Source: an uncultured Methanosarcinales archaeon
GTDB taxonomy: Archaea; Nanobdellota; Nanobdellia; Woesearchaeales; JACPBV01
Direction: 5' to 3'
Length of the DNA stretch: 64,000 bases
Assembly: GCA_964577685.1 (NCBI GenBank)
Contig: CAZNZT010000003.1
Location: 11,083-75,082, forward strand
The notes under the pieces are model-generated. The model ran no database searches, was not told where the DNA came from, and worked only from the letters and a program-made list of their open reading frames with translations. Every line of letters starts with the position of its first letter. Positions within the stretch are counted from its first letter, which is position 1. Of this stretch, positions 38,269 through 53,487 are shown in pieces. The position numbers were made by a program, and so were the translations under genes.

Positions 38269-39069
38269 ATGAGGATTCAATTAAAACTTAAAGTAGCAAA
38301 GGAGTTTTCTTATGATAGAGAATATCATTCAAAGTTTCAGGGCTTTATTTATAAGCAGCTTATTGATACTCCTTACAGATTTTTACATGAAAAGAAAGGT
38401 TGCAAATTTTTTTGCTTTTCAAATATTTTTCCTTTAAGAATTGGAAAAAATAAGAAAATAGAGACATTTAAAGAAGGGCAAACAAAGTTCTGGCTTATTT
38501 CAAGTCCAGATTCTGGCTTTATTTATGTTTTGCGGGAAAGGTTAGAAAAAATTAAAGATGAAAATAAACTGATAAATCTTGGGGAGATGCAATTTTATTT
38601 GGAAGAACCTAAACTTGTTGATTTGAGGATGGGGAGAAAAAACCTGACAATAAAAACAGAAACCCCAATAGTTTTAAGGATAGGCAGGAAGACATATAGG
38701 AGATATGGAGTTAAACCATCAAAAGATTATGAATATTTATTTTGGCGTCCAAAATGGCCTTTTGAATTATTTATAGAACCTTTAACAAATAATCTTCTCA
38801 ATAAATATAGGGATTTTTACCAATTAAAGGAAAAAGAATTTAATGAGTTAAAAAATAAAGTCTTGCCTTTATTTCAGAGATTGGAGTTTAAGGATACACT
38901 AGTTAATCATGTTGTCATTAATGGCAAGGAACAAAGGTTTTTCGGTTCCTTATGGAAGTTTCATTTTGACTGGCTTAATAATGAGCAGAAAAAATTGCTT
39001 GGGTTTGCTCTTGATTGTGGCTTTGGAGAGAAAAATAGTTATGGTTTTGGGTTTGTGAATATTAGATAG
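38269..39069 (+). CDS. cas6: CRISPR endoribonuclease Cas6
   Basis: 266 aa with a two-RAMP layout and the C-terminal glycine-rich loop GFGEKNSYGFGFV. Confidence 0.85.
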   Translation: MRIQLKLKVAKEFSYDREYHSKFQGFIYKQLIDTPYRFLHEKKGCKFFCFSNIFPLRIGKNKKIETFKEGQTKFWLISSPDSGFIYVLRERLEKIKDENKLINLGEMQFYLEEPKLVDLRMGRKNLTIKTETPIVLRIGRKTYRRYGVKPSKDYEYLFWRPKWPFELFIEPLTNNLLNKYRDFYQLKEKEFNELKNKVLPLFQRLEFKDTLVNHVVINGKEQRFFGSLWKFHFDWLNNEQKKLLGFALDCGFGEKNSYGFGFVNIR

Positions 39070-39082
39070 TTATATACCAAAT

Positions 39083-39178
39083 GTTAAAAAAATTTAACAC
39101 CTGTAAAAAATAATTAACAAACCGATAAATTTAAATACTAATGTTAATAATAATTAACAGATGTTAGAAATAATTAAC
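39083..39178. promoter_or_regulatory. four phased GTTAA-N6-TTAAC-type palindromes in front of and over the start of the wHTH-NTase gene
   Basis: Perfect sites at 39083-39098 and 39143-39158. One-mismatch sites at 39103-39118 (GTAAA) and 39163-39178 (GTTAG, overlapping ATG 39161). Spacing 20/40/20 bp. Confidence 0.55.
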
Positions 39179-39673
39179 AACCTAAAACCTTTTTTTGAAG
39201 ATTGCTATAGAAGAATTCATGTAAGAGAGTATGCGAGAATTATAAGAATAAGCCCGCCAACTGCTTCAAAATTATTAGGTAAAATGCACAAAAAGGGGTT
39301 ATTAAAAAAAGAAGTTGGAAAACAATACTTATTATATTATGCTAATAAAGATTCTGAGCTGTTTGTTGATTTATCAAGAATCTACTGGAAATTAAAATTA
39401 AAATCCTCGGGATTGTTGGATTCTATAGAAGAGAACTTCCTCTCTCCAATAGTAATTCTTTTTGGTTCCCTTTCTAAAGCTGAGGCAAAAAAAGATTCTG
39501 ATATAGATTTGGCTATATTTACTATAACTAAAAAGAAAATAGAGTTGTTGAGATATGAAAAAAAATTAAAAAGAAACATTCAGTTATTTATCTTTAAAAG
39601 TATAGAGAATGTGAAAAATAAAGAATTGCTTAATAACATTCTAAATGGTTATAAAATTATGGGAGAATTTTAA
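39161..39673 (+). CDS. wHTH-fused minimal nucleotidyltransferase (MNT-type)
   Basis: N-terminal wHTH (REYARIIRISPPTASKLLGKMHKKGLL). NTase motif ILFGSLSKAEAKKDSDIDLAIF. Confidence 0.8.
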   Translation: MLEIINNLKPFFEDCYRRIHVREYARIIRISPPTASKLLGKMHKKGLLKKEVGKQYLLYYANKDSELFVDLSRIYWKLKLKSSGLLDSIEENFLSPIVILFGSLSKAEAKKDSDIDLAIFTITKKKIELLRYEKKLKRNIQLFIFKSIENVKNKELLNNILNGYKIMGEF

Positions 39674-39674
39674 A

Positions 39675-40079
39675 ATGGATTGGGAAGAGTGTGTAAAGAA
39701 AAGAATAGTAAAAGATGTAAAAAAAGATAAAAACTTAATGGGATCAATAAAAGAAATCGCAGAAATAAAGATAAAGTCAGCTAAAATATTGCCAAAACAC
39801 TTAGTTGTAAGTAAAATAACTCTATTGTATGATGCTTTAAGAGGCTATTTAGAAGCATTAACTTTAGAAAATGGATATAAGATTTATAATCATGAATGTT
39901 ATGCTGCTTTTTTAAAAGAAATTTTGAACAAACCAAAAGAAGCTGAAGAATTTAATAAATTAAGGAAAATCAGAAATGCTATTAATTATTATGGAAGAAA
40001 GGTAAACAAAGAAGAAGCAGAAGAAATTATAAAAAACCTATTGCATTTAATTGAAAAAATAAAAAACTTGATAGATTAA
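39675..40079 (+). CDS. HEPN-domain protein (partner of the MNT)
   Basis: All-helical, about 134 aa. Motif LRKIRNAINYYG. ATG at 39675, 2 nt after the MNT stop. Confidence 0.7.
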   Translation: MDWEECVKKRIVKDVKKDKNLMGSIKEIAEIKIKSAKILPKHLVVSKITLLYDALRGYLEALTLENGYKIYNHECYAAFLKEILNKPKEAEEFNKLRKIRNAINYYGRKVNKEEAEEIIKNLLHLIEKIKNLID

Positions 40080-40111
40080 TGGGAATGAAAGTTAAAAAGA
40101 CCACTTTATAA

Positions 40112-40345
40112 ATGAAATTTGAATTTCATTATGATAAGGAAGATGATATTCTTGTTATTTATAGTCTTAATTCTAAATATCAAGAGAGCATTGAATATGA
40201 TGAAAAGTTGGTTATAGATTTAGATAAAGATGGTAAAGTTATAGGAATAGGAATTTTTGATGCTTCAGAGTTTCTCCATGCTTTTAATGAGCTTGTCAAT
40301 AATAAATTTCTTGAAAATTTAGAAGAGGCTATATTAATAAATTAA
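40112..40345 (+). CDS. DUF2283-like small protein
   Basis: HYDKEDDILVIYSL...EKLVIDLDKDGKVIGIGIFDASEF fits the DUF2283 pattern (YD-x-E-x-D-x-L ... D-x-x-G-x-h-h-G-I-E-I). Confidence 0.55.
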   Translation: MKFEFHYDKEDDILVIYSLNSKYQESIEYDEKLVIDLDKDGKVIGIGIFDASEFLHAFNELVNNKFLENLEEAILIN

Positions 40346-40547: not shown

Positions 40548-40635
40548 GTTAATATTATTTGAACAAGTAAAAGGTTATTCATATTCGTTAACTGCATTTA
40601 ACGAAAAATTTATATATTCGTTAATTGTCCTTAAC
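40548..40635. promoter_or_regulatory. GTTAA-N6-TTAAC palindromes upstream of the AAA-ATPase gene
   Basis: Perfect, extended TTCGTTAA-ctgcat-TTAACGAA at 40584-40605. Perfect GTTAA-ttgtcc-TTAAC at 40620-40635, ending 5 nt before ATG 40640. Degenerate GTTAA-tattat-TTGAAC at 40548-40564. Confidence 0.5.
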
Positions 40636-40639
40636 ATAT

Positions 40640-41875
40640 ATGAAATTAGAAATTTTGAATCACTGGTGGAAAGAAAGAAGAGTTAGAAAAGAATTTATAC
40701 CTGAAATCAAAAGAAATTTGTTTTATGAGTTGATTCCTTATTTAAATAAGAAGCAAATAATATCGTTGGTTGGTTTAAGAAGGGTTGGAAAAACTACTAT
40801 GCTTTATCAGTTAATTCAATATTTAATAGAAAAGGGAGTTGACCCTTTTCATATACTTTATTTTTCTTTTGATGAAGAGAAAGAGGATTTGGATGAAATA
40901 TTAGGGTATTATGAGAAAGAGATACTCAAGAAAAATCTCGCAAAAGAAAGGGTTTTTCTTTTTCTTGACGAAATCCAAAAATTAGAAAAATGGCAAGATA
41001 AACTTAAATTTTTATACGATACCCATCCTAAGATGAAAATAATTATTTCTGGTTCAGCATCTATTGATTTAATTTTTCACGGCAAAGAAACACTTGCAGG
41101 AAGAATATTTTACTTTTACCTTGATTTATTAAGCTTTGATGAATTTTTGAAATTTAAAAATGTCTCTATAGAGAAAATTAAAAAAAGGCCAGAATTATGG
41201 AGAGAAGAAATTGAAACATTAGTTAGAGAATATTTAGAAAAACCTTTTCCAGAAATAGTGAATGCTTCTGGAATATTTGTAAAAAAATATTTGAAAGAGG
41301 GTATAGTTGACAGAGTTATAATAAAAGATATTAAAGAACTGTTTGAAATAAGAGGATTTGAGGTTTTGGAAAAATTGATTAAACTTATTTTTCTTAATCC
41401 TGGCTTGATTATGAATCTCGAACAATTTTCCAAAGAATTGGGAATAAGCAGACAAGCTCTAAGCAATTATCTTTACTACTTAGAAACTACATATCTCATT
41501 AGATCTGCAGGAAATTTTAGAGGTTCAATTAGGGCATCTTCAAGAAAATTAAGGAAATACTATCCTGTCCATCCTTGTTTTAGTTTGGCTTTTAACTGTG
41601 AAGACAAAGGAAAGTTCATAGAGAATTTAGTTTTATTTTTAACTAAAGCCAAGTATTATTGGAGGGAAAAGGAAAAGGAAGTAGATTTTGTTCTTGAAAA
41701 CATAACTCCCGTAGAAGTAAAATTCAAGAAAGAAATAAAAAGACAGGACTTTAAATATCTTGAATATTTTATGAAAAAATTTAAATGCAAGAAAGCTTTA
41801 ATGATTAGTAAAAATACAGAAACAAAAAAAGGAAAAATTAAAATTATCCCATTATGGAAATTCATACTAAAATGA
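40640..41875 (+). CDS. AAA-type ATPase with a C-terminal PD-(D/E)xK-like domain (AAA_14/DUF4143-type)
   Basis: Walker A GLRRVGKTT. Walker B FLFLDEIQ. C-terminal EVDFVLENITPVEVKFKKE nuclease-like motif. ATG at 40640 preferred over the TTG at 40625. Confidence 0.8.
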   Translation: MKLEILNHWWKERRVRKEFIPEIKRNLFYELIPYLNKKQIISLVGLRRVGKTTMLYQLIQYLIEKGVDPFHILYFSFDEEKEDLDEILGYYEKEILKKNLAKERVFLFLDEIQKLEKWQDKLKFLYDTHPKMKIIISGSASIDLIFHGKETLAGRIFYFYLDLLSFDEFLKFKNVSIEKIKKRPELWREEIETLVREYLEKPFPEIVNASGIFVKKYLKEGIVDRVIIKDIKELFEIRGFEVLEKLIKLIFLNPGLIMNLEQFSKELGISRQALSNYLYYLETTYLIRSAGNFRGSIRASSRKLRKYYPVHPCFSLAFNCEDKGKFIENLVLFLTKAKYYWREKEKEVDFVLENITPVEVKFKKEIKRQDFKYLEYFMKKFKCKKALMISKNTETKKGKIKIIPLWKFILK

Positions 41876-41949
41876 AATTAAAATTCACAGGAAATTGGTT
41901 TATTGATGCTGGTATTTTGGGGTTTGTGAGGTTGATGGAGGAGGTGTGA
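41872..41949 (+). CDS. 25-aa ORF resembling a Cas8b N-terminus
   Basis: MKLKFTGNWFIDAGILGFVRLMEEV-stop. ATGA overlap with the ATPase stop. The TGNWFIDAGILGF motif resembles N-termini I recall for Cas8a/b large subunits. The frame differs by +1 from the following ORF. Confidence 0.35.
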   Translation: MKLKFTGNWFIDAGILGFVRLMEEV

Positions 41950-41950
41950 G

Positions 41951-43765
41951 ATGATAAAGGAGGCAGTTCAATTTGTTAAAGAAGTAGAAGAAAGCGGGAT
42001 TTTAAAAGATTTTGAAGTTGATTTTTCGAAGAAGAAATTTATAATTATAGAAACTGAAAAGAAAAGTGAGCATATCAAATACAAGAATGCTCTTTTTTTT
42101 GAAGGAGATAAGATAAGAGAATGGCTAAATGTTCACAACCATTATGAAGAATTTTTTAAAAACCTTGACAATTTTATTTTTCCAAAAGAAATCGGTGGCA
42201 ACAAAGCATTAGGTGGAAGGAGAGGTCTCCTGACGTTTGTTCCATTCGCTTTTCAATTTAGAGATGAAATTATAAATTCACTATTAAAAAGGAAAGAAGA
42301 CAAAAGGAATATCAATAAAAAAGTGGATAATACTTATAAAGCATTTTCTTCTATTTCAAACAGATACAAAATACTTAATAATATTAAAGATAGAGAGGAC
42401 TTAATTTCAAAGATTAAAAATATTTATGAAATTTTTTTTAAAAAAATCAAAGAAAAATTTACAAGTGAGAATTTAAAAGAAAAATATATAAATTCATATG
42501 TAATTATTCAATTAGATAAAGATACCTTTTCTAAATTGTTTGCGTGGAGTAGAGAGTACATTAAAATAAAAAAGAGTGAAGCTAAACAAAGTGCTAAAAA
42601 GTTTCAAGGAGAGTGTGCTATATGCAAAAAGAAAAGAAAAATCTCTTATTCTTCGTTCTTTTCAAGTTGGGATGTAGATAAAATTTACTTCAATCATAAA
42701 ACAAGGATAAAAGAAAAACCATTATTTATATGTTCAGAATGCCAACTAAAACTAAAAGATTTCCAAAACATCTTAAAAAGATTTAAAATAAAAATTTTTC
42801 CTCTTTTTATTGATTCTTCTTTTCGTGAAAAAGAAATAAAACTTTTAAATAGTAAGACTAAAAACATCTTTTCTTATATTTTTGAACAATTAAAGGAAGA
42901 GACCTCAAATATGGATTTTTATCTTGTTGTGAATAGCGGGGGAATTGTTTTCTTTGATTATGTAACTAATTACAGATGGCTTTTAGGAAATTATTTTTTC
43001 TTTTTTGATTTTAAAGAAGAAAATAGGCAATATAGGAAGGGAGAGATAATTTCTAACGTATCCAGACAATTTATAGAAAAAAAGGTTGCTCAGCTTCTTG
43101 ACAACAAAGACAATGTTAAGTATTTTGGTGAATTGAAAGGAAAAGATAATGAATCTTTAACTAAAGAGTATCAAATACGACAAAAAATTTTTGATTTCAT
43201 TTACAGAAGTAAAAATTACTTAACTAAAAAAGATATAGAAAATTTAGTGATTTTTAAAATAGAAAAAGACATCAAAGACCCTAAAAAGAAAGATAGTCTT
43301 ATAAGGGTGAATTCCAAAAAATATTTAAATTTCCTTTTCAATTATCACTTAATAGGAGGGTTTGAGATGAATGAAAAGAGCATAATCTTAAATAAAGTGA
43401 AAGATATGAAAGAAGTTTTAAATTCTGGAGATTATGATAAATTCGATATTAGAGATAGTGAAGAATGGGCCTATTGGGTTGGGCAACTTGCTTATTATTT
43501 GGCGTATCAATCAAAATCTCAAAATAAAAATTACGCTTTGATAGAGCCATTTATAAATCGTTCAACTACAAAACTTATAAAGAAAACATTAAATGAGTTT
43601 TTTGAGAAATTTAAGCATGCAATAAATATGCAAAATAAGAAATTTTCAGTAGTATCTTCTAAGGTTTCTGATTATCTAATACAAAAATCTTTTATAGATT
43701 TAAAAATTTATTTTTACACAGGAGTTTTTGATGATAATATCTTTTTAAAGAAAAAGGAGGTATAA
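41951..43765 (+). CDS. cas8b: type I-B large subunit Cas8b (Cst1-like, CXXC-CXXC)
   Basis: 604 aa. CAICKKK...ICSECQ double CXXC. Sits directly upstream of cas7-cas5-cas3. GGAGGAGGTG RBS upstream. Confidence 0.75.
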   Translation: MIKEAVQFVKEVEESGILKDFEVDFSKKKFIIIETEKKSEHIKYKNALFFEGDKIREWLNVHNHYEEFFKNLDNFIFPKEIGGNKALGGRRGLLTFVPFAFQFRDEIINSLLKRKEDKRNINKKVDNTYKAFSSISNRYKILNNIKDREDLISKIKNIYEIFFKKIKEKFTSENLKEKYINSYVIIQLDKDTFSKLFAWSREYIKIKKSEAKQSAKKFQGECAICKKKRKISYSSFFSSWDVDKIYFNHKTRIKEKPLFICSECQLKLKDFQNILKRFKIKIFPLFIDSSFREKEIKLLNSKTKNIFSYIFEQLKEETSNMDFYLVVNSGGIVFFDYVTNYRWLLGNYFFFFDFKEENRQYRKGEIISNVSRQFIEKKVAQLLDNKDNVKYFGELKGKDNESLTKEYQIRQKIFDFIYRSKNYLTKKDIENLVIFKIEKDIKDPKKKDSLIRVNSKKYLNFLFNYHLIGGFEMNEKSIILNKVKDMKEVLNSGDYDKFDIRDSEEWAYWVGQLAYYLAYQSKSQNKNYALIEPFINRSTTKLIKKTLNEFFEKFKHAINMQNKKFSVVSSKVSDYLIQKSFIDLKIYFYTGVFDDNIFLKKKEV

Positions 43766-43770: not shown

Positions 43771-44826
43771 ATGACAGAACCGAAACCTTACACAAAATTT
43801 GCACAAGGGATTTTTATTGTCAAATCTAAGAACAGCGCCTTTAATAGCGACTTCAGCGGATTACCGAGAAGACTACCGGATGAAAATGGAACTATTTACG
43901 CTACAGATAAAGCATTGAAATATTGTATTAGGAAATACTTACTTGATAAAGGAGAATTGGTTTTTGTGTGGAGAAGATACGGAGAGAGTGGTGATCCTAT
44001 TTCTCTTGAAGAAAATTATAAGAAATTTATTGAATTATTAAAAGAGAAAGAAGAAATAGATAAAAATTATAAAGTTGATGATAAAGAAAAAAATAGTGCC
44101 ATAATTACAAATCTTTTAAAAGCTATTGATATTAAATTATTTGGAGTTACATTTGCTAAAAAATCCAAGAAAAAAGAAGAACAAAGAAATTTATCCATCA
44201 CAGGACCAGTTCAATTATCTTATGGAGTTAATAAATTAAATGAGAATACATTTTACAATAATGATATTCTTTCACCATATATTACTGAAGAAGAAAAAAA
44301 GCAGTCTACGATAGGAAATGAAACAAAAACTCTCGAAGCTCATTATGTTTATGATTTTGTTATAAATCCAAATAATCTCATTGATGATTTAGAATTTTTA
44401 GATAAAGAAGAAAGAGAAAAGTTAATATTAACAGAAGATGATGTGGATAAATTTAAAGAAGCTATCTGTAAAGGGGTAAACTATGTAAATTCTACCACAA
44501 AAATAGGATCTGAAGGAGAACTTCTTCTCTTTGTAGAGTTAAAAACTGAAGAAGATAAAGAGAGTAAAAAATTAGAAGGAACCTTTTTGCCTCTTTTAAA
44601 AGATTTAGTTAAAATAGAAGAAGAGAATAATCGAACTAAGATTGATTTAACAGAAGTTTTTAACGTCTTAAATGGATATAGCGATCAGGTAGAAAAAATT
44701 GAAATTTATTATAACCCTTCTCTTTCTGAAATATTGGGAGTTCCGGAAGATGAGGGTGGATTAAATATAGAAAAATTTGATATAATTACTTTAGAAAAGA
44801 TTGACGAAAATCAAACATCTGCTTAA
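43771..44826 (+). CDS. cas7: type I-B Cas7 (Cst2/DevR-like)
   Basis: N-terminal FIVKSKNSAFNSDFSGLPRRLPDENGTIYATDKALKYCIRKYL is typical of Cas7. 351 aa. Confidence 0.85.
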   Translation: MTEPKPYTKFAQGIFIVKSKNSAFNSDFSGLPRRLPDENGTIYATDKALKYCIRKYLLDKGELVFVWRRYGESGDPISLEENYKKFIELLKEKEEIDKNYKVDDKEKNSAIITNLLKAIDIKLFGVTFAKKSKKKEEQRNLSITGPVQLSYGVNKLNENTFYNNDILSPYITEEEKKQSTIGNETKTLEAHYVYDFVINPNNLIDDLEFLDKEEREKLILTEDDVDKFKEAICKGVNYVNSTTKIGSEGELLLFVELKTEEDKESKKLEGTFLPLLKDLVKIEEENNRTKIDLTEVFNVLNGYSDQVEKIEIYYNPSLSEILGVPEDEGGLNIEKFDIITLEKIDENQTSA

Positions 44827-44866: not shown

Positions 44867-45676
44867 ATGGAAAAGTTAATCACTTTCAAGATAGAATCAG
44901 ATTTTGCTTTATTTAAAAAACCAGATATTAACGAGGTTTATTTAACTTATAATCTCCCACCAAAACCGCTTCTTTTAGGGATATTTGGAGCAATTTTAGG
45001 ACTAAAAGGACTAAAACATCAATATGAAAAAGGTGAAAAATATCCAGAATACTATGGGAAACTTAAACATTGGAGAACAGGTATTAAACCATTAGGCAAT
45101 TTTCCTTTTAATAAAATAATAAATGAATATAATAGTAAAAATAGTTATTTTGGAAGTGCAAAATATGAAAACATAACTATTCAAGAGCAACTCCTCATAA
45201 GACCAAAATATCAGATTTTTGTTTTATCAGATAATGAAGATTCTCTTTTTAATAAATTCGTCTCTTTATTGAATGGGAATAAGGTTATATTTATGCCTTA
45301 TATGGGCAAAAATGAATTTGTTTTAAAGATTAGTGATTTTGAGAAAATTGGTAACTTTGAGGATATAGAAAATTTTGAAAAAGGAAAAATAGATTCGATA
45401 TTTCTTCATAAACCTATTAATAAAGAAGAGAAGAAAGAATCAAAGGAAGGATTAGATTCCAAAGAATTTTATGTTGAAGGAGAAGGGTTGCTTGACGAAA
45501 AAGAAGGATGGGGATTTGAATTTTATGAGAATTTTCCCATAGGTTTCGACAAAAATATGCAATACAACTTATTCAAAATTAAGTATACCAATAAAGAGGT
45601 AGAAAAGAAAGAATTATTATTTGAAGAATTTTCTAGGATTTTGAAAATAAAAGATAAAATAGTTTATTTTTTTTGA
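44867..45676 (+). CDS. cas5: type I-B Cas5
   Basis: FKIESDFALFKKPDINEVYLTYNLPPKPLLLGIFGAILGLKG is the Cas5 N-terminal RAMP signature. ATG at 44867 preferred over the TTG at 44801; the start is uncertain. Confidence 0.8.
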   Translation: MEKLITFKIESDFALFKKPDINEVYLTYNLPPKPLLLGIFGAILGLKGLKHQYEKGEKYPEYYGKLKHWRTGIKPLGNFPFNKIINEYNSKNSYFGSAKYENITIQEQLLIRPKYQIFVLSDNEDSLFNKFVSLLNGNKVIFMPYMGKNEFVLKISDFEKIGNFEDIENFEKGKIDSIFLHKPINKEEKKESKEGLDSKEFYVEGEGLLDEKEGWGFEFYENFPIGFDKNMQYNLFKIKYTNKEVEKKELLFEEFSRILKIKDKIVYFF

Positions 45677-48266: not shown

Positions 48267-48267
48267 A

Positions 48268-48756
48268 ATGCGAATAATTCCCACACAAATTAATTATTAT
48301 TTTGTATGTAAAAGGGAGCTGTGGCTTTTTTCTAAAGACCTAAGCATGGAACAAACTTCTGAGTTGGTAGCTTTAGGCCAACTTTTGCATGAATTGAGTT
48401 ATGGTGAAGAAAAGAAGGGTATAGAAATTGGTTCAGCAAAATTTGATTTTATAAGGCGAGGAGATAAAATCATTATTAACGAAGTTAAAAAATCAGATAA
48501 AATTGAGGAAGCACACATCTGGCAACTTTTATATTATCTTTTTATTCTGAAAAAAAGGGGAGTAAAAGCAGAAGGCCTAATAAGATATCCAAAATTAAGA
48601 AAAATTGAAAAAGTTAAGCTGACAGAAGAAAAAGAAGAAAAAATAAAGCAAATCTTAAAAGAAATAAGAAAAATAACAAACTACCCAATCCCTCCCCGCC
48701 CAATCAATAAACCTTACTGCAAGAGTTGTAGCTATTATGAATTGTGCTTTGCATAA
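48268..48756 (+). CDS. cas4: Cas4 (RecB-like nuclease with 4 Cys)
   Basis: N-terminal YYFVCKRELWL Cys. D...E-V-K core (IINEVKKS). C-terminal CKSCSYYELC. Confidence 0.85.
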   Translation: MRIIPTQINYYFVCKRELWLFSKDLSMEQTSELVALGQLLHELSYGEEKKGIEIGSAKFDFIRRGDKIIINEVKKSDKIEEAHIWQLLYYLFILKKRGVKAEGLIRYPKLRKIEKVKLTEEKEEKIKQILKEIRKITNYPIPPRPINKPYCKSCSYYELCFA

Positions 48757-48767
48757 CAAAACATTTA

Positions 48768-48821
48768 TAAACTTAAGTTTACATCTATAAACTAAAATGG
48801 ACAATCATAAACTTAAGTTTA
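48768..48821. promoter_or_regulatory. two copies of the perfect 14-bp palindrome TAAACTTAAGTTTA, 40 bp apart
   Basis: 48768-48781 (upstream of ATG 48797) and 48808-48821 (inside codons 4-9 of the same gene). Flanks are also conserved (ataaacttaagtttaca). Confidence 0.5.
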
Positions 48822-49336
48822 CACTATTGGAGCAAGAAATTTTTTCCTTGCTTTCTCAAAATGCAGGAAAGAAATTTAGCCAGAGGGAAATCGCAAAACT
48901 TTTAGAAGTTTCTCCAACTGCTGTTTCTAAAACTATAAAGAGATTGATAGAGAAAAAACTTATAAAAATTGAAAAAACAAAAAATATAAATTTTGTTTTT
49001 TTTAATAGAGACGAACAAAAAGCAATTGAATTAAAAAGAATTGAGAATTTAAGACAGATATATTTATCAGGACTTTCTGATTTTTTGTTAAATAATCTGC
49101 CAGGAACAACTATTATTTTATTTGGCAGTTATTCAATAGGTGAAGATATTTTTAATTCTGATATTGATATTGCTATTATTGGAAGAAAAGAAAAAATTCT
49201 TCAATTAGATAAATATGAAAGAATACTAAATAGAACTATCCATATTTTGTTTTTTGATTCATGGAAAAAAATAAATAAGCACTTGAAAAATAATATTTTA
49301 AATGGCATAGTTTTACACGGAAATATAGAAATATGA
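48797..49336 (+). CDS. wHTH-fused minimal nucleotidyltransferase (second copy)
   Basis: wHTH (FSQREIAKLLEVSPTAVSKTIKRLIEKKLI). NTase IILFGSYSIGEDIFNSDIDIAIIG. C-terminal NNILNG shared with the 39161 paralog. Confidence 0.8.
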   Translation: MDNHKLKFTLLEQEIFSLLSQNAGKKFSQREIAKLLEVSPTAVSKTIKRLIEKKLIKIEKTKNINFVFFNRDEQKAIELKRIENLRQIYLSGLSDFLLNNLPGTTIILFGSYSIGEDIFNSDIDIAIIGRKEKILQLDKYERILNRTIHILFFDSWKKINKHLKNNILNGIVLHGNIEI

Positions 49337-49369
49337 TAAAAAATTTCTGAATATATTGAAGACGGAACG

Positions 49370-49771
49370 GTGAGGAAGGTTTCGTCAAATCCTGAGAGAG
49401 CTAAAAGTTTGGTAAAAGAAGCAGAGAGAAAACTTAAGGTTATATATAGACAAATTAAAGTGTTAGGCATTGATGACGAGCTTGCTAACGAGTATATACT
49501 TATGTGTTATGATTGTTTGATGTTTTTAGTAAGAGCCAAAATGCTTTTGAGTGGTTATTATGCAATTGGCAATCACGCCCATGAAGCAGAGGTTTCTTAT
49601 TTGAAGATTTTAAATTTTAATAAAGCTTATGTTCAATTTCTGGATAAAATGAGATATTACAGAAATGGAATGCTTTATTATGGGACAAAATTAGATAGGG
49701 AGTATGCAAAGAAGGTTATAAAATTTACAGAAAAGATATATTTTAAACTAAGAAAAATTCTTGGATTATAA
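49370..49771 (+). CDS. HEPN-domain protein (second copy)
   Basis: Helical. Motif MRYYRNGMLYYG parallels LRKIRNAINYYG of the first copy. Only a GTG start (49370) is available in frame after the upstream stop, so the start is uncertain. Confidence 0.6.
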   Translation: MRKVSSNPERAKSLVKEAERKLKVIYRQIKVLGIDDELANEYILMCYDCLMFLVRAKMLLSGYYAIGNHAHEAEVSYLKILNFNKAYVQFLDKMRYYRNGMLYYGTKLDREYAKKVIKFTEKIYFKLRKILGL

Positions 49772-49783
49772 AAATCCGATGAA

Positions 49784-50302
49784 ATGCCAAAAAAATCAAA
49801 AAAATACAAATTGACTAAAAAAGAGTTAGAAACAATCTATCTTGTTTTAAAAGGGATAGAAGAGGGTATTATTGATTATTTGGATAAGGAGTGGGAAGAA
49901 GATTATTATAATGATGATCTTATAGATTTGGAAGAAATCGAGAAGATTTCAAAGAAATTAAAAAAAATTTTGGAAGAAAAGAGTATAGAGAATTTAGAGA
50001 AAAGCGTTCTTCTAAGAAAATTTCATCCATTTAGGAATGACATAGACGAGGCAGTTTTCTCAAAACTTGAAAGAGCATTTGAAAACCTAAAAGAAGTCGA
50101 AGTAAAATATTTTTCATTATCTTCTGGAGATTTCACACAAAGAAAATTAAAAATTTATTATTTAAGCAGAAAGTATATGATAGCTTACTGTTATCTTAGA
50201 AAGGAAATCAGAAAGTTCAGAGTAAGCAGAATTAGGTCTGTTAAAATACTAAAAAAAAGATATACTATTCCAAAAAATTTCAATAAAAATAACTTTTTAT
50301 AA
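49784..50302 (+). CDS. WYL-domain protein without a recognisable HTH
   Basis: C-terminal RKLKIYYLSRKYMIAYCYLRKEIRKFRVSRIRSVKIL fits the WYL domain pattern. Acidic helical N-terminus. The stop lies 1 nt before the cas1 ATG. Confidence 0.6.
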   Translation: MPKKSKKYKLTKKELETIYLVLKGIEEGIIDYLDKEWEEDYYNDDLIDLEEIEKISKKLKKILEEKSIENLEKSVLLRKFHPFRNDIDEAVFSKLERAFENLKEVEVKYFSLSSGDFTQRKLKIYYLSRKYMIAYCYLRKEIRKFRVSRIRSVKILKKRYTIPKNFNKNNFL

Positions 50303-50303
50303 A

Positions 50304-51293
50304 ATGCCACAAAATTATTATATTCTAAAATCAGGAAAATTAAGAAGAAAAGGAAATACTCTTTATTTGAAAACAAATGAAGAAGCAAAGGCAATTCCAA
50401 TTAACAATGTAAACTCTTTATTTTGTTTTGGAGAAGTTGATGTTAACACAAAACTCCTTATATTTTTGTCGCAAAACAAAATACCTGTTCATTTTTTCAA
50501 TTACTATGGCTTTTATGTTGGAAGTTTTTATCCTAGAGAATATCTGAATTCTGGTTTATTGTTGGTCAAACAAGTTGAGCATTATCTTAATAATGAAAAA
50601 AGAAGTTTTATAGCAAGAGAGTTTGTAAGTGCAGCTTTGTTTAATATCCTTAAAAATATAGGGCATTATAAAAAACATGGTAAAGATGTTTCTGAGAACA
50701 TAGAGAAAATTAAAGAAAATCTTAGAAAACTGAAAGAAGTGAAAGAGAGGAGAGAATTGATGGGAATAGAGGGGGATAGCAGGAATATTTATTACCAAAC
50801 TTTTTCTGAAATCTTAAGGGGAGATTTTAACTTTGAAAAGAGAACAAGACAGCCACCAAAAAATATGCTAAATGCAATGATTAGTTTTGGAAACTCCTTG
50901 CTTTATACTGTTTGCCTAACTGAGATTTACCATACTCAGCTTAATCCTACTATTAGTTATTTGCATGAACCTTCAGAGAGGAGGTTTAGTCTCTCTTTGG
51001 ATTTGGCAGAAATTTTCAAACCAGTTATTGTAGATAAGGTTATTTTTAGGCTCATTAATAATCAAATGATAAATAAACAACACTTTGATAGGCAACTTAA
51101 CTTTTGTTATCTTAAAGACAATGGGAAAAGATTATTTTTACAGGAATTTGATTCTAGACTAAAAACAACAATCAAACATAAACATCTAAAGAGAAATGTT
51201 TCATATCAACATTTAATAAGAATTGAATGTTATAAATTAATAAAACACCTATTAGGAGATAAGGAATATAAGGCATTTAGGGTATGGTGGTAA
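50304..51293 (+). CDS. cas1: Cas1 integrase
   Basis: 329 aa. N-terminal YYILKSGKLRRKGNTLYL. C-terminal catalytic region LHEPSERRFSLSLDLAEIFKPVIVD. Confidence 0.9.
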   Translation: MPQNYYILKSGKLRRKGNTLYLKTNEEAKAIPINNVNSLFCFGEVDVNTKLLIFLSQNKIPVHFFNYYGFYVGSFYPREYLNSGLLLVKQVEHYLNNEKRSFIAREFVSAALFNILKNIGHYKKHGKDVSENIEKIKENLRKLKEVKERRELMGIEGDSRNIYYQTFSEILRGDFNFEKRTRQPPKNMLNAMISFGNSLLYTVCLTEIYHTQLNPTISYLHEPSERRFSLSLDLAEIFKPVIVDKVIFRLINNQMINKQHFDRQLNFCYLKDNGKRLFLQEFDSRLKTTIKHKHLKRNVSYQHLIRIECYKLIKHLLGDKEYKAFRVWW

Positions 51294-51294
51294 A

Positions 51295-51552
51295 ATGTAT
51301 ATAATAATTGTTTATGATGTTAATCAGAAAAGAGTTAGTAAATTTTGTAAATTTTTAAGGCAATATCTACATTGGATTCAGAATAGCGTGTTTGAAGGAG
51401 AGGTTTCTGAATCTCAATTTTTCTTTATAAAAGAAAAATTAAAGAAGATGATAAAAGAAGATGATTCAGTAATAATATTTGATATAGGTAAAAAGTGGTT
51501 AAGCAGAGAAATTCTTGGAAAAGAGAAAAATCCTGTTTCATCAATAATCTAA
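51295..51552 (+). CDS. cas2: Cas2
   Basis: 85 aa. MYIIIVYDV...IQNSVFEGEV, typical ferredoxin-fold Cas2. Confidence 0.85.
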   Translation: MYIIIVYDVNQKRVSKFCKFLRQYLHWIQNSVFEGEVSESQFFFIKEKLKKMIKEDDSVIIFDIGKKWLSREILGKEKNPVSSII

Positions 51553-51656
51553 CAAATCAAAGTCAGCCTTTATAAATAAAGTACAAGATTAAAACATGAC
51601 TTCCAAAGGACTTACAGAACCTCAAAATTTATATATTTCAGGACATCTGATATAGT
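51553..51656 (+). promoter_or_regulatory. CRISPR leader
   Basis: 104-bp AT-rich non-coding stretch between cas2 and the first repeat, with TATA-like tttataaata (about 51571) and tttatatattt (about 51628). Confidence 0.5.
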
Positions 51657-53487
51657 ATTCAAATAGAACTATAGTAGGATTGAAATTACGGATACAATGC
51701 CCTTATTGCCTGCAAGGTTACACATATTCAAATAGAACTATAGTAGGATTGAAATACTGTTACCTTTAGGAATATGCTACTTCCATAATTACATTCAAAT
51801 AGAACTATAGTAGGATTGAAATCCTGTTGTAGTTTGGTATCCATTTAGCTCAAGAAGTACATTCAAATAGAACTATAGTAGGATTGAAATAGAGTGAAAG
51901 AATTCCTTAAAGAAGAGCGAACAATTTATTCAAATAGAACTATAGTAGGATTGAAATAAAGACATACAAAACGCAGTAAATAACAGCGGATATTATTCAA
52001 ATAGAACTATAGTAGGATTGAAATTTCGTCTGGAATTGTGTATTTGTGTTCGCAATTAACATTCAAATAGAACTATAGTAGGATTGAAATGGACTAATTA
52101 GTCCTGCTATTGCTCCAGCAATTAGTATTCAAATAGAACTATAGTAGGATTGAAATATAAAATGCTGGTCTATAAGCTTCCTTTTTTCATCAATTCAAAT
52201 AGAACTATAGTAGGATTGAAATGGTAATGCTGATTGGGTGTTGTAATCTGCTACAGTTCATTCAAATAGAACTATAGTAGGATTGAAATGTACAGAGCAA
52301 GAAATGGGAAAGAGCAAACACACAAATTCAAATAGAACTATAGTAGGATTGAAATAGAGGATTTATTATAAAATTTATTATTTTTTTTATGCATTCAAAT
52401 AGAACTATAGTAGGATTGAAATATGGGCAGTTAAGGCTTACTTAGAAGAATTTACAAACATTCAAATAGAACTATAGTAGGATTGAAATCAGCAGAAGCA
52501 GTAAAGATATGTTCAAGTGCTTCGTCATTCAAATAGAACTATAGTAGGATTGAAATTACTAGAACCGTGGCGAGCATTCCGAGATGCAGCACAATTCAAA
52601 TAGAACTATAGTAGGATTGAAATGGTACTACAGCTAGCCAGACAAAAACCTTTTTCGCATTCAAATAGAACTATAGTAGGATTGAAATAAGTATGCGTAT
52701 ATATATTTTACTTCTAACTCCTCTGTATTCAAATAGAACTATAGTAGGATTGAAATAGGGCTACTCCATCGTAACCCTCTTTACTAACTATAAATTCAAA
52801 TAGAACTATAGTAGGATTGAAATGCTCTATTAAAGGGGGGTTTGTGTTCTCCCTGCTGTGATTCAAATAGAACTATAGTAGGATTGAAATATAGTGATGT
52901 CATCAGGAACTTCTGAATCATCATCTGATTCAAATAGAACTATAGTAGGATTGAAATAGAGAAAGAAAGAGAAAAGAAAGAGAAGAAGAAAAATTCAAAT
53001 AGAACTATAGTAGGATTGAAATAAGATTGAAAAGGGGTGATAAAATGTTAGTAATAGATTCAAATAGAACTATAGTAGGATTGAAATAAAACTATAAAAA
53101 TGTTTAGTTCAATTCAAAACCAAATTCAAATAGAACTATAGTAGGATTGAAATGAAGTCAAATCAATTTTTGCGAACTTAACATTGTAAATTCAAATAGA
53201 ACTATAGTAGGATTGAAATTGGGTCTCCTGTGAATGTTCCCAAAAACATATAATCAGATTCAAATAGAACTATAGTAGGATTGAAATCTATATCTCTCTG
53301 CCCACCATGTTTTTAATCTTATTATATTCAAATAGAACTATAGTAGGATTGAAATTGAAAAAGAAACAGAAGGATGGAAGATAATAAAGAACATTCAAAT
53401 AGAACTATAGTAGGATTGAAATGCAGAAGGCAGGATTTAACGAACGGGGATTTTTTAATTCAAATAGAACTATAGTAGGATTGAAAT
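51657..53487 (+). CRISPR. CRISPR array: 28 identical 30-nt repeats (attcaaatagaactatagtaggattgaaat), 27 spacers of 35-39 nt
   Basis: Counted by hand. Repeat starts: 51657, 51726, 51793, 51861, 51928, 51995, 52061, 52127, 52193, 52260, 52326, 52393, 52460, 52527, 52594, 52659, 52727, 52794, 52861, 52928, 52993, 53058, 53124, 53190, 53258, 53326, 53393, 53458. The repeat ends in ATTGAAAT (I-B-like 8-nt handle) and the leader is on the cas2 side, so I assign the plus orientation. Confidence 0.97.

What the first reader, a model, noticed from the sequence alone, without database searches (positions are those of the whole stretch)
38269..53487. Type I-B CRISPR-Cas locus split twice by paralogous wHTH-nucleotidyltransferase/HEPN cassettes
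The usual I-B order is cas6-cas8b-cas7-cas5-cas3-cas4-cas1-cas2. Here five extra genes sit between cas6 and cas8b: wHTH-MNT, HEPN, a DUF2283-like gene and an AAA-ATPase with a PD-(D/E)xK-like tail, followed by the 25-aa Cas8b-like micro-ORF. Three more sit between cas4 and cas1: a second wHTH-MNT, a second HEPN and a WYL protein. The two MNT proteins are clear paralogs (shared ILFGS...SDIDxAI and C-terminal NNILNG), as are the two HEPN proteins. All inserted genes are co-directional with the cas genes and tightly spaced. MNT/HEPN pairs are known as abundant toxin-antitoxin-like modules in archaea. HEPN RNases are known CRISPR ancillary effectors in type III and VI systems. Two such cassettes wired into a type I operon, separating effector from adaptation genes, suggest an abortive-infection or regulatory layer coupled to I-B interference or adaptation.
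Basis: partly seen in the sequence, partly recalled or inferred. Interest (0 to 1): 0.65.

Follow-up and report, generated by a model that had tools for sequence, protein, structure and literature searches.

The report
Defence gene cassettes nested in CRISPR locus
A complete type I-B CRISPR-Cas locus of a small-genome (DPANN-like) vent archaeon carries two self-regulated nucleotidyltransferase/HEPN toxin-antitoxin-like modules and other candidate defence genes at its module junctions. This is a new example of the known habit of defence genes nesting inside one another, not a dedicated CRISPR add-on.

Summary
The order is cas6, [wHTH-MNT1, HEPN1, DUF2283, AAA_14/DUF4143 ATPase, 25-aa micro-ORF], cas8b-cas7-cas5-cas3-cas4, [wHTH-MNT2, HEPN2, WYL], cas1-cas2, then 28 identical repeats.

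The two MNT/HEPN pairs belong to two very large, highly conserved DPANN families (PADLOC candidate system PDC-M05). In all 27 other contexts I examined, these families had no cas gene nearby. Each pair brings its own family-typical promoter: a TATA box about 30 nt before the ATG, overlapped by palindromic operators. They are therefore autonomous, autoregulated modules.

The ATPase matches PDC-S01. WYL is a known cas-associated accessory family.

Of the three closest I-B relatives, two have cas6 and cas8b contiguous. The third carries a different MNT/HEPN pair at the same junction. Other archaeal loci carry MNT/HEPN or AbiE pairs next to cas4.

New details:
- HEPN2 is frameshifted at codon 5-6.
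- Both HEPNs are AF0298-type and lack the canonical histidine.
- The MNT1-type operator core recurs at the promoter in front of the ATPase and cas8b.
- The micro-ORF is conserved and matches the N-terminus of another Cas8 family.

Verdict: an embedded defence or toxin-antitoxin cargo. Regulatory cross-talk with the CRISPR genes is possible but unproven.

The parts
38269..39069 (+). cas6
   Evidence: Pfam Cas_Cas6_C E 5e-15; TIGR01877 E 2.3e-23, above its cut-off.
39082..39180 (+). MNT1 promoter. TATA box TTTAAATA at 39130-39137. Four palindromes (T)GTTAA-N6-TTAAC(A) at about -78, -58, -18 and +2 relative to the ATG.
   Evidence: The same architecture is conserved at six non-cas loci of the family. 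The TATA box centre lies about 27 nt before the ATG, which suggests a leaderless mRNA (inference).
39161..39673 (+). wHTH-MNT1, a predicted antitoxin, nucleotidyltransferase and autorepressor
   Evidence: Pfam Polbeta E 1.6e-8, NTP_transf_2, and HTH hits in residues 18-54. PADLOC PDC-M05A E 5e-15. GS...DxD motif is present in the sequence. More than 1300 homologues at 60-84% identity.
39675..40079 (+). HEPN1, an AF0298-type HEPN and predicted toxin
   Evidence: No Pfam hit alone. AlphaFold model pLDDT 90.4. Best fold match is 2hsb (AF0298 HEPN), TM 0.74-0.78, followed by HepT structures. PDC-M05B E 1.8e-9. 66-78% identical to partner genes at non-cas loci; the motif R..RN...YYG is invariant.
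40112..40345 (+). DUF2283 small protein
   Evidence: Pfam PF10049 E 5.5e-13. It is not found next to MNT1/HEPN1 homologues elsewhere.
40584..40636 (+). Promoter of the ATPase / micro-ORF / cas8b unit. TATA box TTTATATA at 40609-40616, flanked by two palindromes TTCGTTAA-N6-TTAAC(GAA) at 40584-40605 and 40617-40636.
   Evidence: Exact GTTAA-N6-TTAAC occurs 4 times in the 64 kb window against 0.2 expected. All four lie at this promoter or at the MNT1 promoter. A T5 run at about 40446 may act as a terminator upstream (inference).
40640..41875 (+). AAA_14 + DUF4143 ATPase (PADLOC PDC-S01)
   Evidence: Pfam AAA_14 E 1.7e-31, DUF4143 E 8.5e-16. PDC-S01 E 8.8e-59. Start at ATG 40640 is inferred from the TATA spacing and from the homologue's N-terminus in L004.
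41872..41949 (+). 25-aa micro-ORF MKLKFTGNWFIDAGILGFVRLMEEV. Its ATG overlaps the ATPase stop codon (ATGA). Its own stop lies 1 nt before the cas8b ATG.
   Evidence: Conserved upstream of cas8b in L101/L102: the 17-aa core is identical, with 6 synonymous and 1 non-synonymous change in 18 codons. It matches the N-terminus of the otherwise unrelated full-length Cas8 of L007 at 21 of 23 residues. It is reproduced in three runs.
41951..43765 (+). cas8b (I-B large subunit), full length
   Evidence: PADLOC Cas8b E 2e-31, matching residues 1-603. Homologues start MIKQLVEFVEKF / MIKEISNFVEKI / MIREAINFVEEF, like this one. The Shine-Dalgarno-like GGAGGTG lies upstream.
43771..44826 (+). cas7
   Evidence: Pfam Cas_Cas7 E 1.6e-32; best NCBIfam hit is Cas7/Csh2.
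44867..45676 (+). cas5b
   Evidence: TIGR02592 E 1.8e-29, above its cut-off. The start follows the gene call on L001.
45687..48266 (+). cas3 (HD nuclease plus helicase)
   Evidence: Cas3_HD, DEAD, Helicase_C and Cas3-like_C_2 domains; TIGR01587 and TIGR01596.
48268..48756 (+). cas4
   Evidence: Pfam Cas_Cas4 E 7.5e-59.
48764..48821 (+). MNT2 promoter. TATA box TTTATAAA at 48764-48771. Perfect palindrome TAAACTTAAGTTTA at 48768-48781 (overlapping the TATA box) and again at 48808-48821 (codons 4-9).
   Evidence: these are the only two sites in the window, found on both strands, against 0.63 expected. The same TATA plus ATAAACTnAAGTT(T/A)A layout is conserved at many non-cas loci of the family.
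48797..49336 (+). wHTH-MNT2
   Evidence: Pfam HTH_11, MarR_2, Polbeta and NTP_transf_2. PDC-M05A E 2e-14. More than 2000 homologues; the best 120 are 63-78% identical and nearly all 179 aa long.
49333..49771 (+). HEPN2, with its 5' end frameshifted. The canonical ATG at 49333 (ATGA overlap with the MNT2 stop) yields MIKNF*. The body continues in the +1 frame. The only in-frame start is GTG 49370 (133 aa).
   Evidence: five homologues are intact through this region. The sequence is identical in independent assemblies. Weak Pfam HEPN hit E 0.0035. A family profile hits 2hsb at E 2e-9.
49784..50302 (+). WYL-domain protein with no detectable HTH
   Evidence: Pfam WYL E 9.5e-11. PADLOC cas-associated WYL E 9.6e-17. 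It is absent next to MNT2/HEPN2 homologues elsewhere.
50304..51293 (+). cas1
   Evidence: Pfam Cas_Cas1 E 5.9e-99.
51295..51552 (+). cas2
   Evidence: Pfam CRISPR_Cas2 E 1.2e-24.
51657..53487 (+). CRISPR array: 28 identical repeats ATTCAAATAGAACTATAGTAGGATTGAAAT and 27 spacers of 35-39 nt
   Evidence: No spacer matches the window or any fetched locus.

Best explanation
**What it is.** This is a complete, probably functional type I-B CRISPR-Cas locus on a low-GC island of a DPANN-like archaeon. Independent defence or toxin-antitoxin modules have nested at its module junctions, cas6|cas8b and cas4|cas1.

**How each MNT/HEPN pair works (by analogy with HepT/MntA, not shown here).** Each wHTH-MNT/HEPN pair is a self-contained module resembling a type VII toxin-antitoxin system.
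- The HEPN protein is the latent toxin, an AF0298-type fold with an alternative or absent RNase site.
- The upstream nucleotidyltransferase would neutralise it, probably by AMPylating the invariant Tyr in the RN...YYG motif.
- The N-terminal winged helix of the MNT would repress the module's own TATA promoter through the palindromic operators. That the operators exist and are conserved across the family is shown. That the MNT binds them is inferred.

**The other guests.** The AAA_14/DUF4143 ATPase (PDC-S01) and DUF2283 are further independent guests. WYL is a conventional cas-associated ligand sensor.

**Relation to the Cas machinery.** The guests do not need Cas proteins to act. They gain co-inheritance and co-expression with the island. 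They may stabilise it by addiction or add a second, suicidal line of defence.

**State of cassette 2.** Its toxin gene is frameshifted, so it is partly decayed or attenuated.
For: - **Family identities.**: PDC-M05A/B twice, PDC-S01, WYL, Cas8b I-B.
- **HEPN fold.**
- **Families live outside cas loci.** No cas gene within 6-10 kb, or within whatever the shorter contig held, in 27 other loci carrying MNT1- or MNT2-family genes. The flanks vary: pyrI, LeuRS, a kinase, IS66, a methyltransferase.
- **Own promoter travels with the pair.** The family-specific TATA-plus-operator architecture is conserved at non-cas loci and retained intact here.
- **Relatives differ.** Closest I-B relatives L100 and L103 have cas6-cas8b contiguous. 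L101/L102 carry a different subfamily pair at the same junction (26% and 31% identity, against 40-68% for the Cas proteins) and place the ATPase at cas3|cas4 instead.
- **Varied guests elsewhere.** AbiEi/AbiEii or MNT/HEPN pairs abut cas4 in L005, L014, L051 and L055.
- **Decay.** HEPN2 is frameshifted.
- **Literature.** PDC-M05 and PDC-S01 are archaea-enriched, and DPANN genomes are enriched in AbiE and PDC systems (PMC12988326). Defence systems are commonly embedded, co-oriented, within other defence systems (bioRxiv 10.1101/2024.01.29.577857). The HepT/MntA mechanism and the AF0298-type active site are described in PMC3710099.
Against: - Both pairs in the 64 kb window lie inside the 13 kb cas cluster.
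- Of about 11 archaeal Cas1-anchored loci with enough flanking sequence, five carry a nucleotidyltransferase-type pair next to cas4 or cas1: MNT/HEPN in L014, L051 and L055, AbiE in L005, and a less certain pair in L012. None of about 64 bacterial loci do. This looks more than random, though no genome-wide background was available.
- The MNT1-type operator core also flanks the TATA box of the promoter that precedes the ATPase, micro-ORF and cas8b.
- The cassettes share the low GC content of the cas genes, so they may have travelled with the island for a long time.
- Both families are unusually well conserved for toxin-antitoxin genes (mean column identity 79%).
- Toxicity, AMPylation and DNA binding are all untested.
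Confidence: 0.62

Rival explanations
1. **Regulatory wiring.** The winged-helix MNT proteins have been co-opted as transcription regulators of the CRISPR genes. wHTH-MNT1 would repress both its own promoter and the promoter that drives ATPase, micro-ORF and cas8b-cas7-cas5-cas3-cas4. The MNT2 promoter would drive WYL-cas1-cas2. The state of the toxin-antitoxin module (antitoxin level, HEPN activation) would then set interference and adaptation gene expression.
For: - Exact GTTAA-N6-TTAAC occurs only at the MNT1 promoter (39083, 39143) and flanking the TATA box before the ATPase (40587, 40620): 4 sites against 0.2 expected. With one mismatch allowed, 6 of 7 sites are at these two promoters.
- The motif is the conserved operator of the MNT1 family elsewhere.
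- ATPase, micro-ORF and cas8b are linked by overlapping or adjacent stop and start codons.
- No T-rich terminator lies between HEPN2, WYL, cas1 and cas2.
- HEPN2 decay fits retention of MNT2 mainly as a regulator.
Against: - DUF4143 ATPase genes elsewhere (L004, L089, L101) each have their own, different palindromes flanking their TATA box. The sites here, with the longer arms TTCGTTAA, may simply be the ATPase's own operators.
- In L101/L102 the MNT and ATPase promoters do not share a motif.
- No operator copy lies at the cas6 promoter or in the CRISPR leader.
- No transcript data exist.
Confidence: 0.2
2. **Dedicated abortive-infection back-up.** The HEPN RNases would be released when I-B interference fails or is inhibited, in the manner of CreTA/CrePA or the type III ancillary nucleases.
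For: - The position between cas6 and cas8b is the same as that of CreTA in Haloarcula I-B (PMC12737573).
- MNT/HEPN or AbiE pairs recur in related archaeal cas loci.
- The immunity-suicide coupling hypothesis is set out in PMC3632139.
Against: - No sensor links the pairs to Cas proteins. There is no CARF or SAVED domain, and no crRNA-like or repeat-like element in the inserts (22 weak repeat matches against 24.8 expected).
- The families are overwhelmingly found without cas genes (0 of 27 contexts).
- HEPN2 is frameshifted.
- The canonical RNase histidine is missing.
Confidence: 0.08
3. **Inert hitch-hikers.** The inserts would be decaying selfish elements in a 'genomic junkyard', with no present function.
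For: - HEPN2 is frameshifted.
- Guest content varies among related loci and includes transposases.
- Defence islands are described as junkyards (bioRxiv 10.1101/270033).
Against: - MNT1, HEPN1, MNT2, the ATPase, WYL and DUF2283 are intact.
- MNT1 and HEPN1 are 66-84% identical to their relatives, with intact operators and catalytic motifs.
- DPANN genomes are compact.
Confidence: 0.1

Closest known systems
HepT/MntA (HEPN/MNT) type VII toxin-antitoxin systems: Shewanella SO_3166/SO_3165 and the Aphanizomenon HEPN-MNT pair
   Same: - A two-gene unit with the MNT upstream of, and abutting, the HEPN gene.
- The MNT has the GS...DxD nucleotidyltransferase motif.
- The HEPN fold matches 7bxo, 7ae6 and 5yep.
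- A conserved Tyr lies next to the arginine motif, where MntA AMPylates HepT.
   Different: - The MNT carries an N-terminal winged helix.
- The HEPN lacks the histidine of Rx4-6H (it has RN...YYG instead).
- The promoter is archaeal and probably leaderless, with palindromic operators.
- Toxicity and AMPylation are untested.
AF0298-type HEPN-T (PDB 2hsb; PF05168 / UPF0332)
   Same: - Best sequence-profile hit (E 2e-9) and best fold hit (TM 0.74-0.78).
- The histidine of the canonical motif is missing and another conserved His lies N-terminal to it, as described in PMC3710099.
   Different: In the HEPN1 subfamily that upstream His is not invariant: it is Arg in two of seven members. The motif here ends in YYG.
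PADLOC phage-defence candidates PDC-M05 (nucleotidyltransferase + HEPN) and PDC-S01 (ATPase + PD-(D/E)xK)
   Same: HMM hits to M05A and M05B for both pairs and to S01 for the ATPase. These families are archaea-enriched, and they were defined from genes embedded in other defence systems (PMC12988326; bioRxiv 10.1101/2024.01.29.577857).
   Different: [quoted passage not shown] Here the host system is a type I-B CRISPR-Cas locus. Antiviral activity of these candidates is unproven.
CreTA, the RNA toxin-antitoxin that safeguards Haloarcula type I-B
   Same: A toxin-antitoxin element sits inside a I-B locus between cas6 and cas8. It could stabilise the locus by addiction.
   Different: CreTA is RNA-based and depends on Cascade and Cas6 through a crRNA-like antitoxin. 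No repeat-like element is present here, and the modules here are protein-based and autonomous.
WYL-domain CRISPR accessory regulators (for example sll7009, WYL1)
   Same: A WYL domain encoded inside a cas locus.
   Different: The protein is short (172 aa) and has no detectable DNA-binding domain.

Membership tests
Type I-B CRISPR-Cas | Cas8b large subunit | tested here: met
   PADLOC Cas8b (CAS-I-B effector large subunit) E 2e-31, full length. No Pfam or NCBIfam hit.
Type I-B CRISPR-Cas | Cas7, Cas5b and Cas6, plus Cas3 with fused HD nuclease and helicase | tested here: met
   TIGR02592 Cas5b above its cut-off. The best Cas7 hit is Csh2, below its cut-off. Cas6 TIGR01877 is above its cut-off. 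Cas3 has HD plus helicase domains.
Type I-B CRISPR-Cas | Cas4-Cas1-Cas2 adaptation module and an adjacent CRISPR array | tested here: met
   28 identical 30-nt repeats ending in ATTGAAAT.
HEPN/MNT (HepT/MntA) type VII toxin-antitoxin | Minimal nucleotidyltransferase with the GS-x(9-13)-DxD motif, encoded immediately upstream of the HEPN gene | tested here: met
   LFGSLSKAEAKKDSDIDLAI and LFGSYSIGEDIFNSDIDIAI. Pfam Polbeta and NTP_transf_2. Gene junctions are 1 nt apart or overlap as ATGA.
HEPN/MNT (HepT/MntA) type VII toxin-antitoxin | HEPN fold of the partner protein | tested here: met
   Profile hit to 2hsb at E 2e-9. HEPN1 model pLDDT 90.4; top fold hits are 2hsb, 1ufb, 7bxo, 7ae6 and 5yep.
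HEPN/MNT (HepT/MntA) type VII toxin-antitoxin | Canonical Rx4-6H RNase motif | tested here: not met
   The motif is R-N-x3-Y-Y-G with no His. The AF0298-type alternative His is present in both window proteins but is not invariant in the HEPN1 family.
HEPN/MNT (HepT/MntA) type VII toxin-antitoxin | Toxicity of HEPN and its neutralisation by MNT-catalysed AMPylation of a Tyr | not testable with these tools
   An invariant Tyr-Tyr follows the Arg motif.
PADLOC PDC-M05 | Adjacent genes matching the M05A and M05B models | tested here: met
   M05A E 5e-15 and 2e-14; M05B E 1.8e-9 and 3.8e-5.
PADLOC PDC-S01 | Single ATPase + PD-(D/E)xK protein matching the S01 model | tested here: met
   E 8.8e-59, matching residues 23-410. 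Pfam AAA_14 + DUF4143.
Dedicated CRISPR ancillary module (in the sense of Csm6/Csx1/Can-type effectors) | Consistent genomic co-occurrence with cas genes | tested here: not met
   0 of 27 other loci with MNT1- or MNT2-family genes have cas genes nearby. Only distinct subfamilies occur in some archaeal cas loci.
Dedicated CRISPR ancillary module (in the sense of Csm6/Csx1/Can-type effectors) | A sensor domain coupling the module to Cas signalling (CARF, SAVED) | tested here: not met
   No such domain in Pfam or PADLOC beyond weak hits to the HTH region.
CreTA-like CRISPR-guarding toxin-antitoxin | A crRNA-like antitoxin with degenerate CRISPR repeats inside the cas locus | tested here: not met
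   Repeat-like matches of at least 18 of 30 nt in 36001-51640: 22 observed against 24.8 expected.
WYL cas-associated regulator | WYL domain plus a DNA-binding domain | tested here: inconclusive
   The WYL domain is present (E 9.5e-11; PADLOC WYL E 9.6e-17). No HTH was detected in residues 1-90.

The most novel reading that the evidence does not exclude
The toxin-antitoxin-like cassette has become the transcriptional switch of the CRISPR effector genes. wHTH-MNT1 would bind the same GTTAA-N6-TTAAC operators at its own promoter and at the promoter driving ATPase, micro-ORF and cas8b-cas3-cas4. The MNT2 promoter would feed WYL-cas1-cas2. Interference and adaptation would then be derepressed exactly when the antitoxin is depleted. 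In addition, the conserved 25-aa micro-ORF would be a separately translated Cas8 N-terminal peptide that the effector complex needs.
Probability: 0.15. Interest if true: 0.7.

Novelty: new member of a known kind. Interest (0 to 1): 0.35.

Why it matters
- **CRISPR loci as hosts.** It shows that CRISPR-Cas loci, like BREX, DISARM and RM systems, host nested candidate defence modules. It gives a clean archaeal (DPANN) example with defined promoters and operators.
- **Ready experiments.** The conserved operator and TATA layouts of two very large wHTH-MNT families give testable binding sites.
- **A route to co-regulation.** The shared operator core at the effector-operon promoter suggests how an embedded toxin-antitoxin module could come to co-regulate an immune system.
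- **An unexplained detail of I-B architecture.** The conserved Cas8 N-terminal micro-ORF has no explanation yet.
- **Limit.** None of this changes the current picture of CRISPR biology unless the regulatory link is demonstrated.

Tried and rejected
- **CreTA-like RNA element.** Scanned 36001-51640 for degenerate CRISPR repeats. Nothing exceeded chance.
- **Self-targeting spacers.** No spacer matches the window or any fetched locus.
- **Micro-ORF as a frameshifted Cas8b N-terminus, or a programmed frameshift.** Rejected for three reasons:
  - Cas8b homologues start at the same MIKE.. residue.
  - The micro-ORF and cas8b are in different relative frames in the window (+1) and in L102 (-1).
  - Three independent assemblies agree.
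- **Cassette-less population variants.** None appeared in the contigs of four runs. The reported 'joints' are 20-27-nt low-complexity matches. Contigs can hide rare variants.
- **Transcript evidence.** No RNA run holds the locus.
- **Virus-borne origin of the MNT families.** Three scans of IMG/VR, with single proteins and with a 20-sequence alignment, found no relative.
- **Close relatives of the host genome.** The best Cas1 match in the GTDB representative genomes is only 64% identical.
- **Orthology of the cas6|cas8b cassette between the window and L102.** Rejected at 26% and 31% identity, against 40-68% for the Cas proteins.
- **NCBIfam naming.** No NCBIfam model reached E 0.1 for the micro-ORF, Cas8b or either HEPN; Pfam likewise gave nothing for Cas8b or HEPN1 and only a sub-threshold HEPN hit for HEPN2. 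Direct phmmer of HEPN2 against PDB sequences found no HEPN structure.

Full report
**1. Observation**

The + strand between 38269 and 53487 carries 16 co-oriented ORFs followed by a CRISPR array. Family searches confirm the cas genes. Cas6, Cas7, Cas5b (TIGR02592, above its cut-off), Cas3 (HD plus helicase), Cas4, Cas1 and Cas2 are all recognised. PADLOC calls the 604-aa protein a I-B Cas8b (E 2e-31). The array has 28 identical 30-nt repeats ending in ATTGAAAT and 27 spacers of 35-39 nt.

Between cas6 and cas8b lie five genes:
- a winged-helix plus minimal nucleotidyltransferase protein (MNT1);
- a 134-aa partner (HEPN1);
- DUF2283;
- an AAA_14+DUF4143 ATPase;
- a 25-aa micro-ORF.

Between cas4 and cas1 lie MNT2, HEPN2 and a WYL protein.

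MNT1 and MNT2 are paralogues (35% identity, E 5e-25). So are the HEPNs (38% over 77 aa, E 7e-10). The locus comes from hydrothermal-vent metagenomes. Independent assemblies of four runs reproduce it with no indels. The whole 15 kb has GC 0.23-0.31 against 0.345 for the rest of the window, and the inserts share this low GC. The flanks are housekeeping genes: SRP54, FtsY, PRPP synthetase and surface proteins.

**2. What the inserted genes are**

HEPN1 has no Pfam hit on its own. Three lines of evidence still place it in the HEPN fold.
- A six-member family profile hits the HEPN protein AF0298 (PDB 2hsb) at E 2e-9.
- Three of the six members hit Pfam HEPN, down to E 2.5e-16.
- An AlphaFold model of HEPN1 (pLDDT 90.4) has 2hsb as best fold match (TM 0.74-0.78). 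The next matches are other HEPN proteins, including the HepT toxins 7bxo, 7ae6 and 5yep.

Both HEPNs carry R-N-x3-Y-Y-G in place of Rx4-6H. Both also have a His further upstream. This is the AF0298-type arrangement described by Anantharaman et al. 2013 (PMC3710099). That paper also proposed the conserved Tyr as the site nucleotidylated by the MNT. In the HEPN1 subfamily the upstream His is Arg in two of seven members, so catalytic competence is uncertain.

Both MNTs keep the GS...DxD motif. PADLOC assigns both pairs to the candidate system PDC-M05 (A and B subunits). It assigns the ATPase to PDC-S01 (E 8.8e-59) and the WYL protein to the cas-associated WYL family. PDC-M05 and PDC-S01 are reported as archaea-enriched, and DPANN genomes as enriched in AbiE and PDC systems (PMC12988326).

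**3. The MNT/HEPN pairs are autonomous and mostly not cas-linked**

- MNT2 has more than 2000 homologues. The best 120 are 63-78% identical and nearly all 179 aa long. Those with names come from Woesearchaeota or Nanoarchaeota.
- MNT1 has more than 1300 homologues of about 170 aa at 60-84% identity, from Woesearchaeota or Pacearchaeota.

I examined 27 other loci carrying these families.
- L003.
- 16 metagenome loci.
- L104-L108.
- L109-L113.

In every locus where the downstream sequence is available, the MNT is followed by an abutting HEPN-like partner. None has a cas gene within the flanks. The neighbours vary: pyrI, leucyl-tRNA synthetase, a kinase, IS66, a DNA methyltransferase. Several loci carry an MNT1-type and an MNT2-type pair in tandem (L088, L092, L097, L104). 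No relative was found on IMG/VR viral contigs.

**4. Promoters and operators**

*MNT2.* Upstream of MNT2, a TATA box (TTTATAAA, 48764-48771) begins 33 nt before the ATG. It overlaps a perfect palindrome, TAAACTTAAGTTTA, which is repeated at codons 4-9. The same TATA plus ATAAACTnAAGTT(T/A)A layout, including the copy inside the coding region, is conserved at many non-cas loci of the family.

*MNT1.* Upstream of MNT1, four (T)GTTAA-N6-TTAAC(A) palindromes sit at about -78, -58, -18 and +2 around a TATA box (TTTAAATA, 39130-39137). This arrangement is nearly base-for-base conserved in six non-cas loci.

Each cassette therefore arrived with, and still has, its own probably leaderless, operator-controlled promoter. 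This is the hallmark of an autoregulated toxin-antitoxin-type module. Binding by the winged helix is inferred, not shown.

**5. Comparison with related I-B loci**

No close relative of the host genome is in the GTDB representative set. The best Cas1 match there is 64% identical.

Among 80 Cas1-anchored loci, cas4 and cas1 are adjacent in nearly all. A profile search found wHTH-MNT/HEPN pairs abutting cas4 or cas1 in only three, all archaeal:
- L014 (Thermoplasmatales);
- L051 (Nanoarchaeia), where the pair lies between cas4 and cas1;
- L055 (Altiarchaeales).

AbiEi/AbiEii pairs were found in L005, L051 and L055. No bacterial locus had either kind of pair.

Only three Cas8b homologues exist in the 5.8-billion-protein collection.
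- L100 (42% identity) has cas6 and cas8b contiguous.
- L103 (36% identity) also has them contiguous.
- L101/L102 (40% Cas8b identity, 68% Cas1 identity) read cas6-[wHTH-MNT][HEPN][micro-ORF]-cas8b-cas7-cas5-cas3-[AAA_14/DUF4143]-cas4-cas1-cas2.

The MNT and HEPN in L101/L102 are only 26% and 31% identical to MNT1 and HEPN1, whereas the Cas proteins are 40-68% identical. They are therefore a different subfamily occupying the same junction.

The overall picture is that the module junctions of this archaeal I-B clade are repeatedly colonised by varying nucleotidyltransferase-type toxin-antitoxin pairs, DUF4143 ATPases and transposases. This matches the described phenomenon of defence systems embedded, co-oriented, inside other defence systems (bioRxiv 10.1101/2024.01.29.577857). 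It also matches the long-standing view of cas neighbourhoods as defence islands (PMC3632139; bioRxiv 10.1101/270033).

**6. New details**

(a) *HEPN2 is damaged.* In five homologues the HEPN gene starts at an ATG that overlaps the MNT stop codon (ATGA). It begins M..(K/D)F.E(Y/F).. in each. In the window this ATG (49333) gives MIKNF followed by a stop. The conserved sequence continues in the +1 frame (EYIEDGTVRKV...). Only GTG 49370 could initiate a truncated 133-aa protein. The sequence is identical in independent assemblies.

(b) *The micro-ORF is not a broken Cas8b start.* Cas8b homologues begin at the same MIKE.. residue, and a Shine-Dalgarno-like GGAGGTG lies upstream of the cas8b ATG. 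Yet the micro-ORF is conserved upstream of cas8b in L101/L102.
- Its core LKFTGNWFIDAGILGFV is identical there, with 6 synonymous changes and 1 non-synonymous change in 18 codons.
- It matches the N-terminus of the otherwise unrelated full-length Cas8 of a Hadarchaeota locus, L007, at 21 of 23 residues.
- GN[WP]F.DAG is a common N-terminal signature of Cas8 proteins.
- Its reading frame relative to cas8b differs between the two loci. This argues for a separately translated peptide or a relic of effector-module exchange, not for a programmed frameshift.

(c) *The MNT1 operator core recurs before the ATPase.* Exact GTTAA-N6-TTAAC occurs four times in the window against 0.2 expected. Two copies are at the MNT1 promoter. 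The other two flank the TATA box (40609-40616) in front of the ATPase. The ATPase stop overlaps the micro-ORF start, and the micro-ORF stop abuts cas8b. This could mean that MNT1 co-regulates the effector operon. However, DUF4143 ATPase genes elsewhere have their own, different palindromes flanking their TATA box. The sites here may therefore be the ATPase's own operators.

**7. Mechanism and verdict**

*Most likely (about 0.6).* The locus is a functional I-B system carrying nested, autonomous cargo.
- Two PDC-M05 (HepT/MntA-like) modules are each autorepressed through the winged helix. Each is presumably neutralised by Tyr nucleotidylation.
- One PDC-S01 ATPase and DUF2283 are additional guests.
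- The WYL protein is a conventional accessory.

The benefit to the cargo would be co-inheritance and co-expression. The possible benefit to the island would be stabilisation by addiction or a second defence layer.

*Rivals.*
- Genuine regulatory wiring through shared operators and read-through: about 0.2.
- A dedicated abortive-infection back-up: about 0.08.
- Inert junk: about 0.1.

I found no CreTA-like repeat element, no self-targeting spacer, no cassette-less variant and no transcript data.

The finding is a new member of a known kind. It is interesting mainly for the well-defined operators, the possible operator sharing with the effector operon, and the conserved Cas8 N-terminal micro-ORF.

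Noticed in passing
window 49333-49372: HEPN2 has a frameshift at codon 5-6 relative to five intact homologues. The canonical ATG, which overlaps the MNT2 stop codon, gives a 5-aa peptide. The body of the gene can only start at GTG 49370.
   Followed up: yes
window 41872-41949; L102 2031-2162; L007 about 1235-1310: The 25-aa micro-ORF upstream of cas8b is conserved in L101/L102, with mostly synonymous changes. It nearly equals the N-terminus of an unrelated full-length Cas8 in a Hadarchaeota locus. It is either a split-off Cas8 N-terminal peptide or a relic of effector-module exchange.
   Followed up: partly
L088 8838-10962; L092 9986-11946; L097 10022-11731; L104 4917-6983: MNT1-type and MNT2-type MNT/HEPN pairs often sit in tandem at non-cas loci. 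The two paralogous families therefore tend to co-locate even without CRISPR.
   Followed up: partly
L005 7910-9390; L051 58-1319; L055 7447-8277: AbiEi/AbiEii-like pairs (an HTH protein plus a DUF1814-type nucleotidyltransferase) are inserted next to cas4 in other archaeal I-B-like loci. This is a second kind of nucleotidyltransferase toxin-antitoxin pair at the same junctions.
   Followed up: partly
L083 6630-9959: A Methanoflexus locus has three genes between cas4 and cas1, none run against a family library: a 537-aa ORF, a 395-aa ORF with a Walker A-like GANGAGKT motif, and a 187-aa ORF. It is another embedded multi-gene unit.
   Followed up: no
L004 about 70-134; L089 about 255-300; L101 7800-7848; window 40584-40636: DUF4143/AAA_14 (PDC-S01) genes each have a TATA box flanked by locus-specific palindromes just before the start codon. 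This suggests autoregulation by the ATPase's own HTH.
   Followed up: partly
L101 101-775 versus L102 1018-1578: The same MNT gene carries an N-terminal MazE/AbrB-like domain in L101 but a short different N-terminus in L102, while the downstream genes are identical. This is either a domain swap or an assembly chimera. L101 also contains a run of Ns.
   Followed up: no
window 31289-31376: Rfam reports a second tRNA-like match (39 bits, 88 nt) directly after tRNA-Val. ARAGORN did not call it. It may be an intron-containing archaeal tRNA.
   Followed up: no
window 38269-53487 versus the flanks: The whole cas island, including the inserts, has GC 0.23-0.31 against 0.345 for the flanking housekeeping genes. 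This is consistent with horizontal acquisition of the island as a unit.
   Followed up: partly
window 52958-52992: One spacer is purine-rich and of low complexity (AGAGAAAGAAAGAGAAAAGAAAGAG...). That explains the extra tandem-repeat calls within the array.
   Followed up: no
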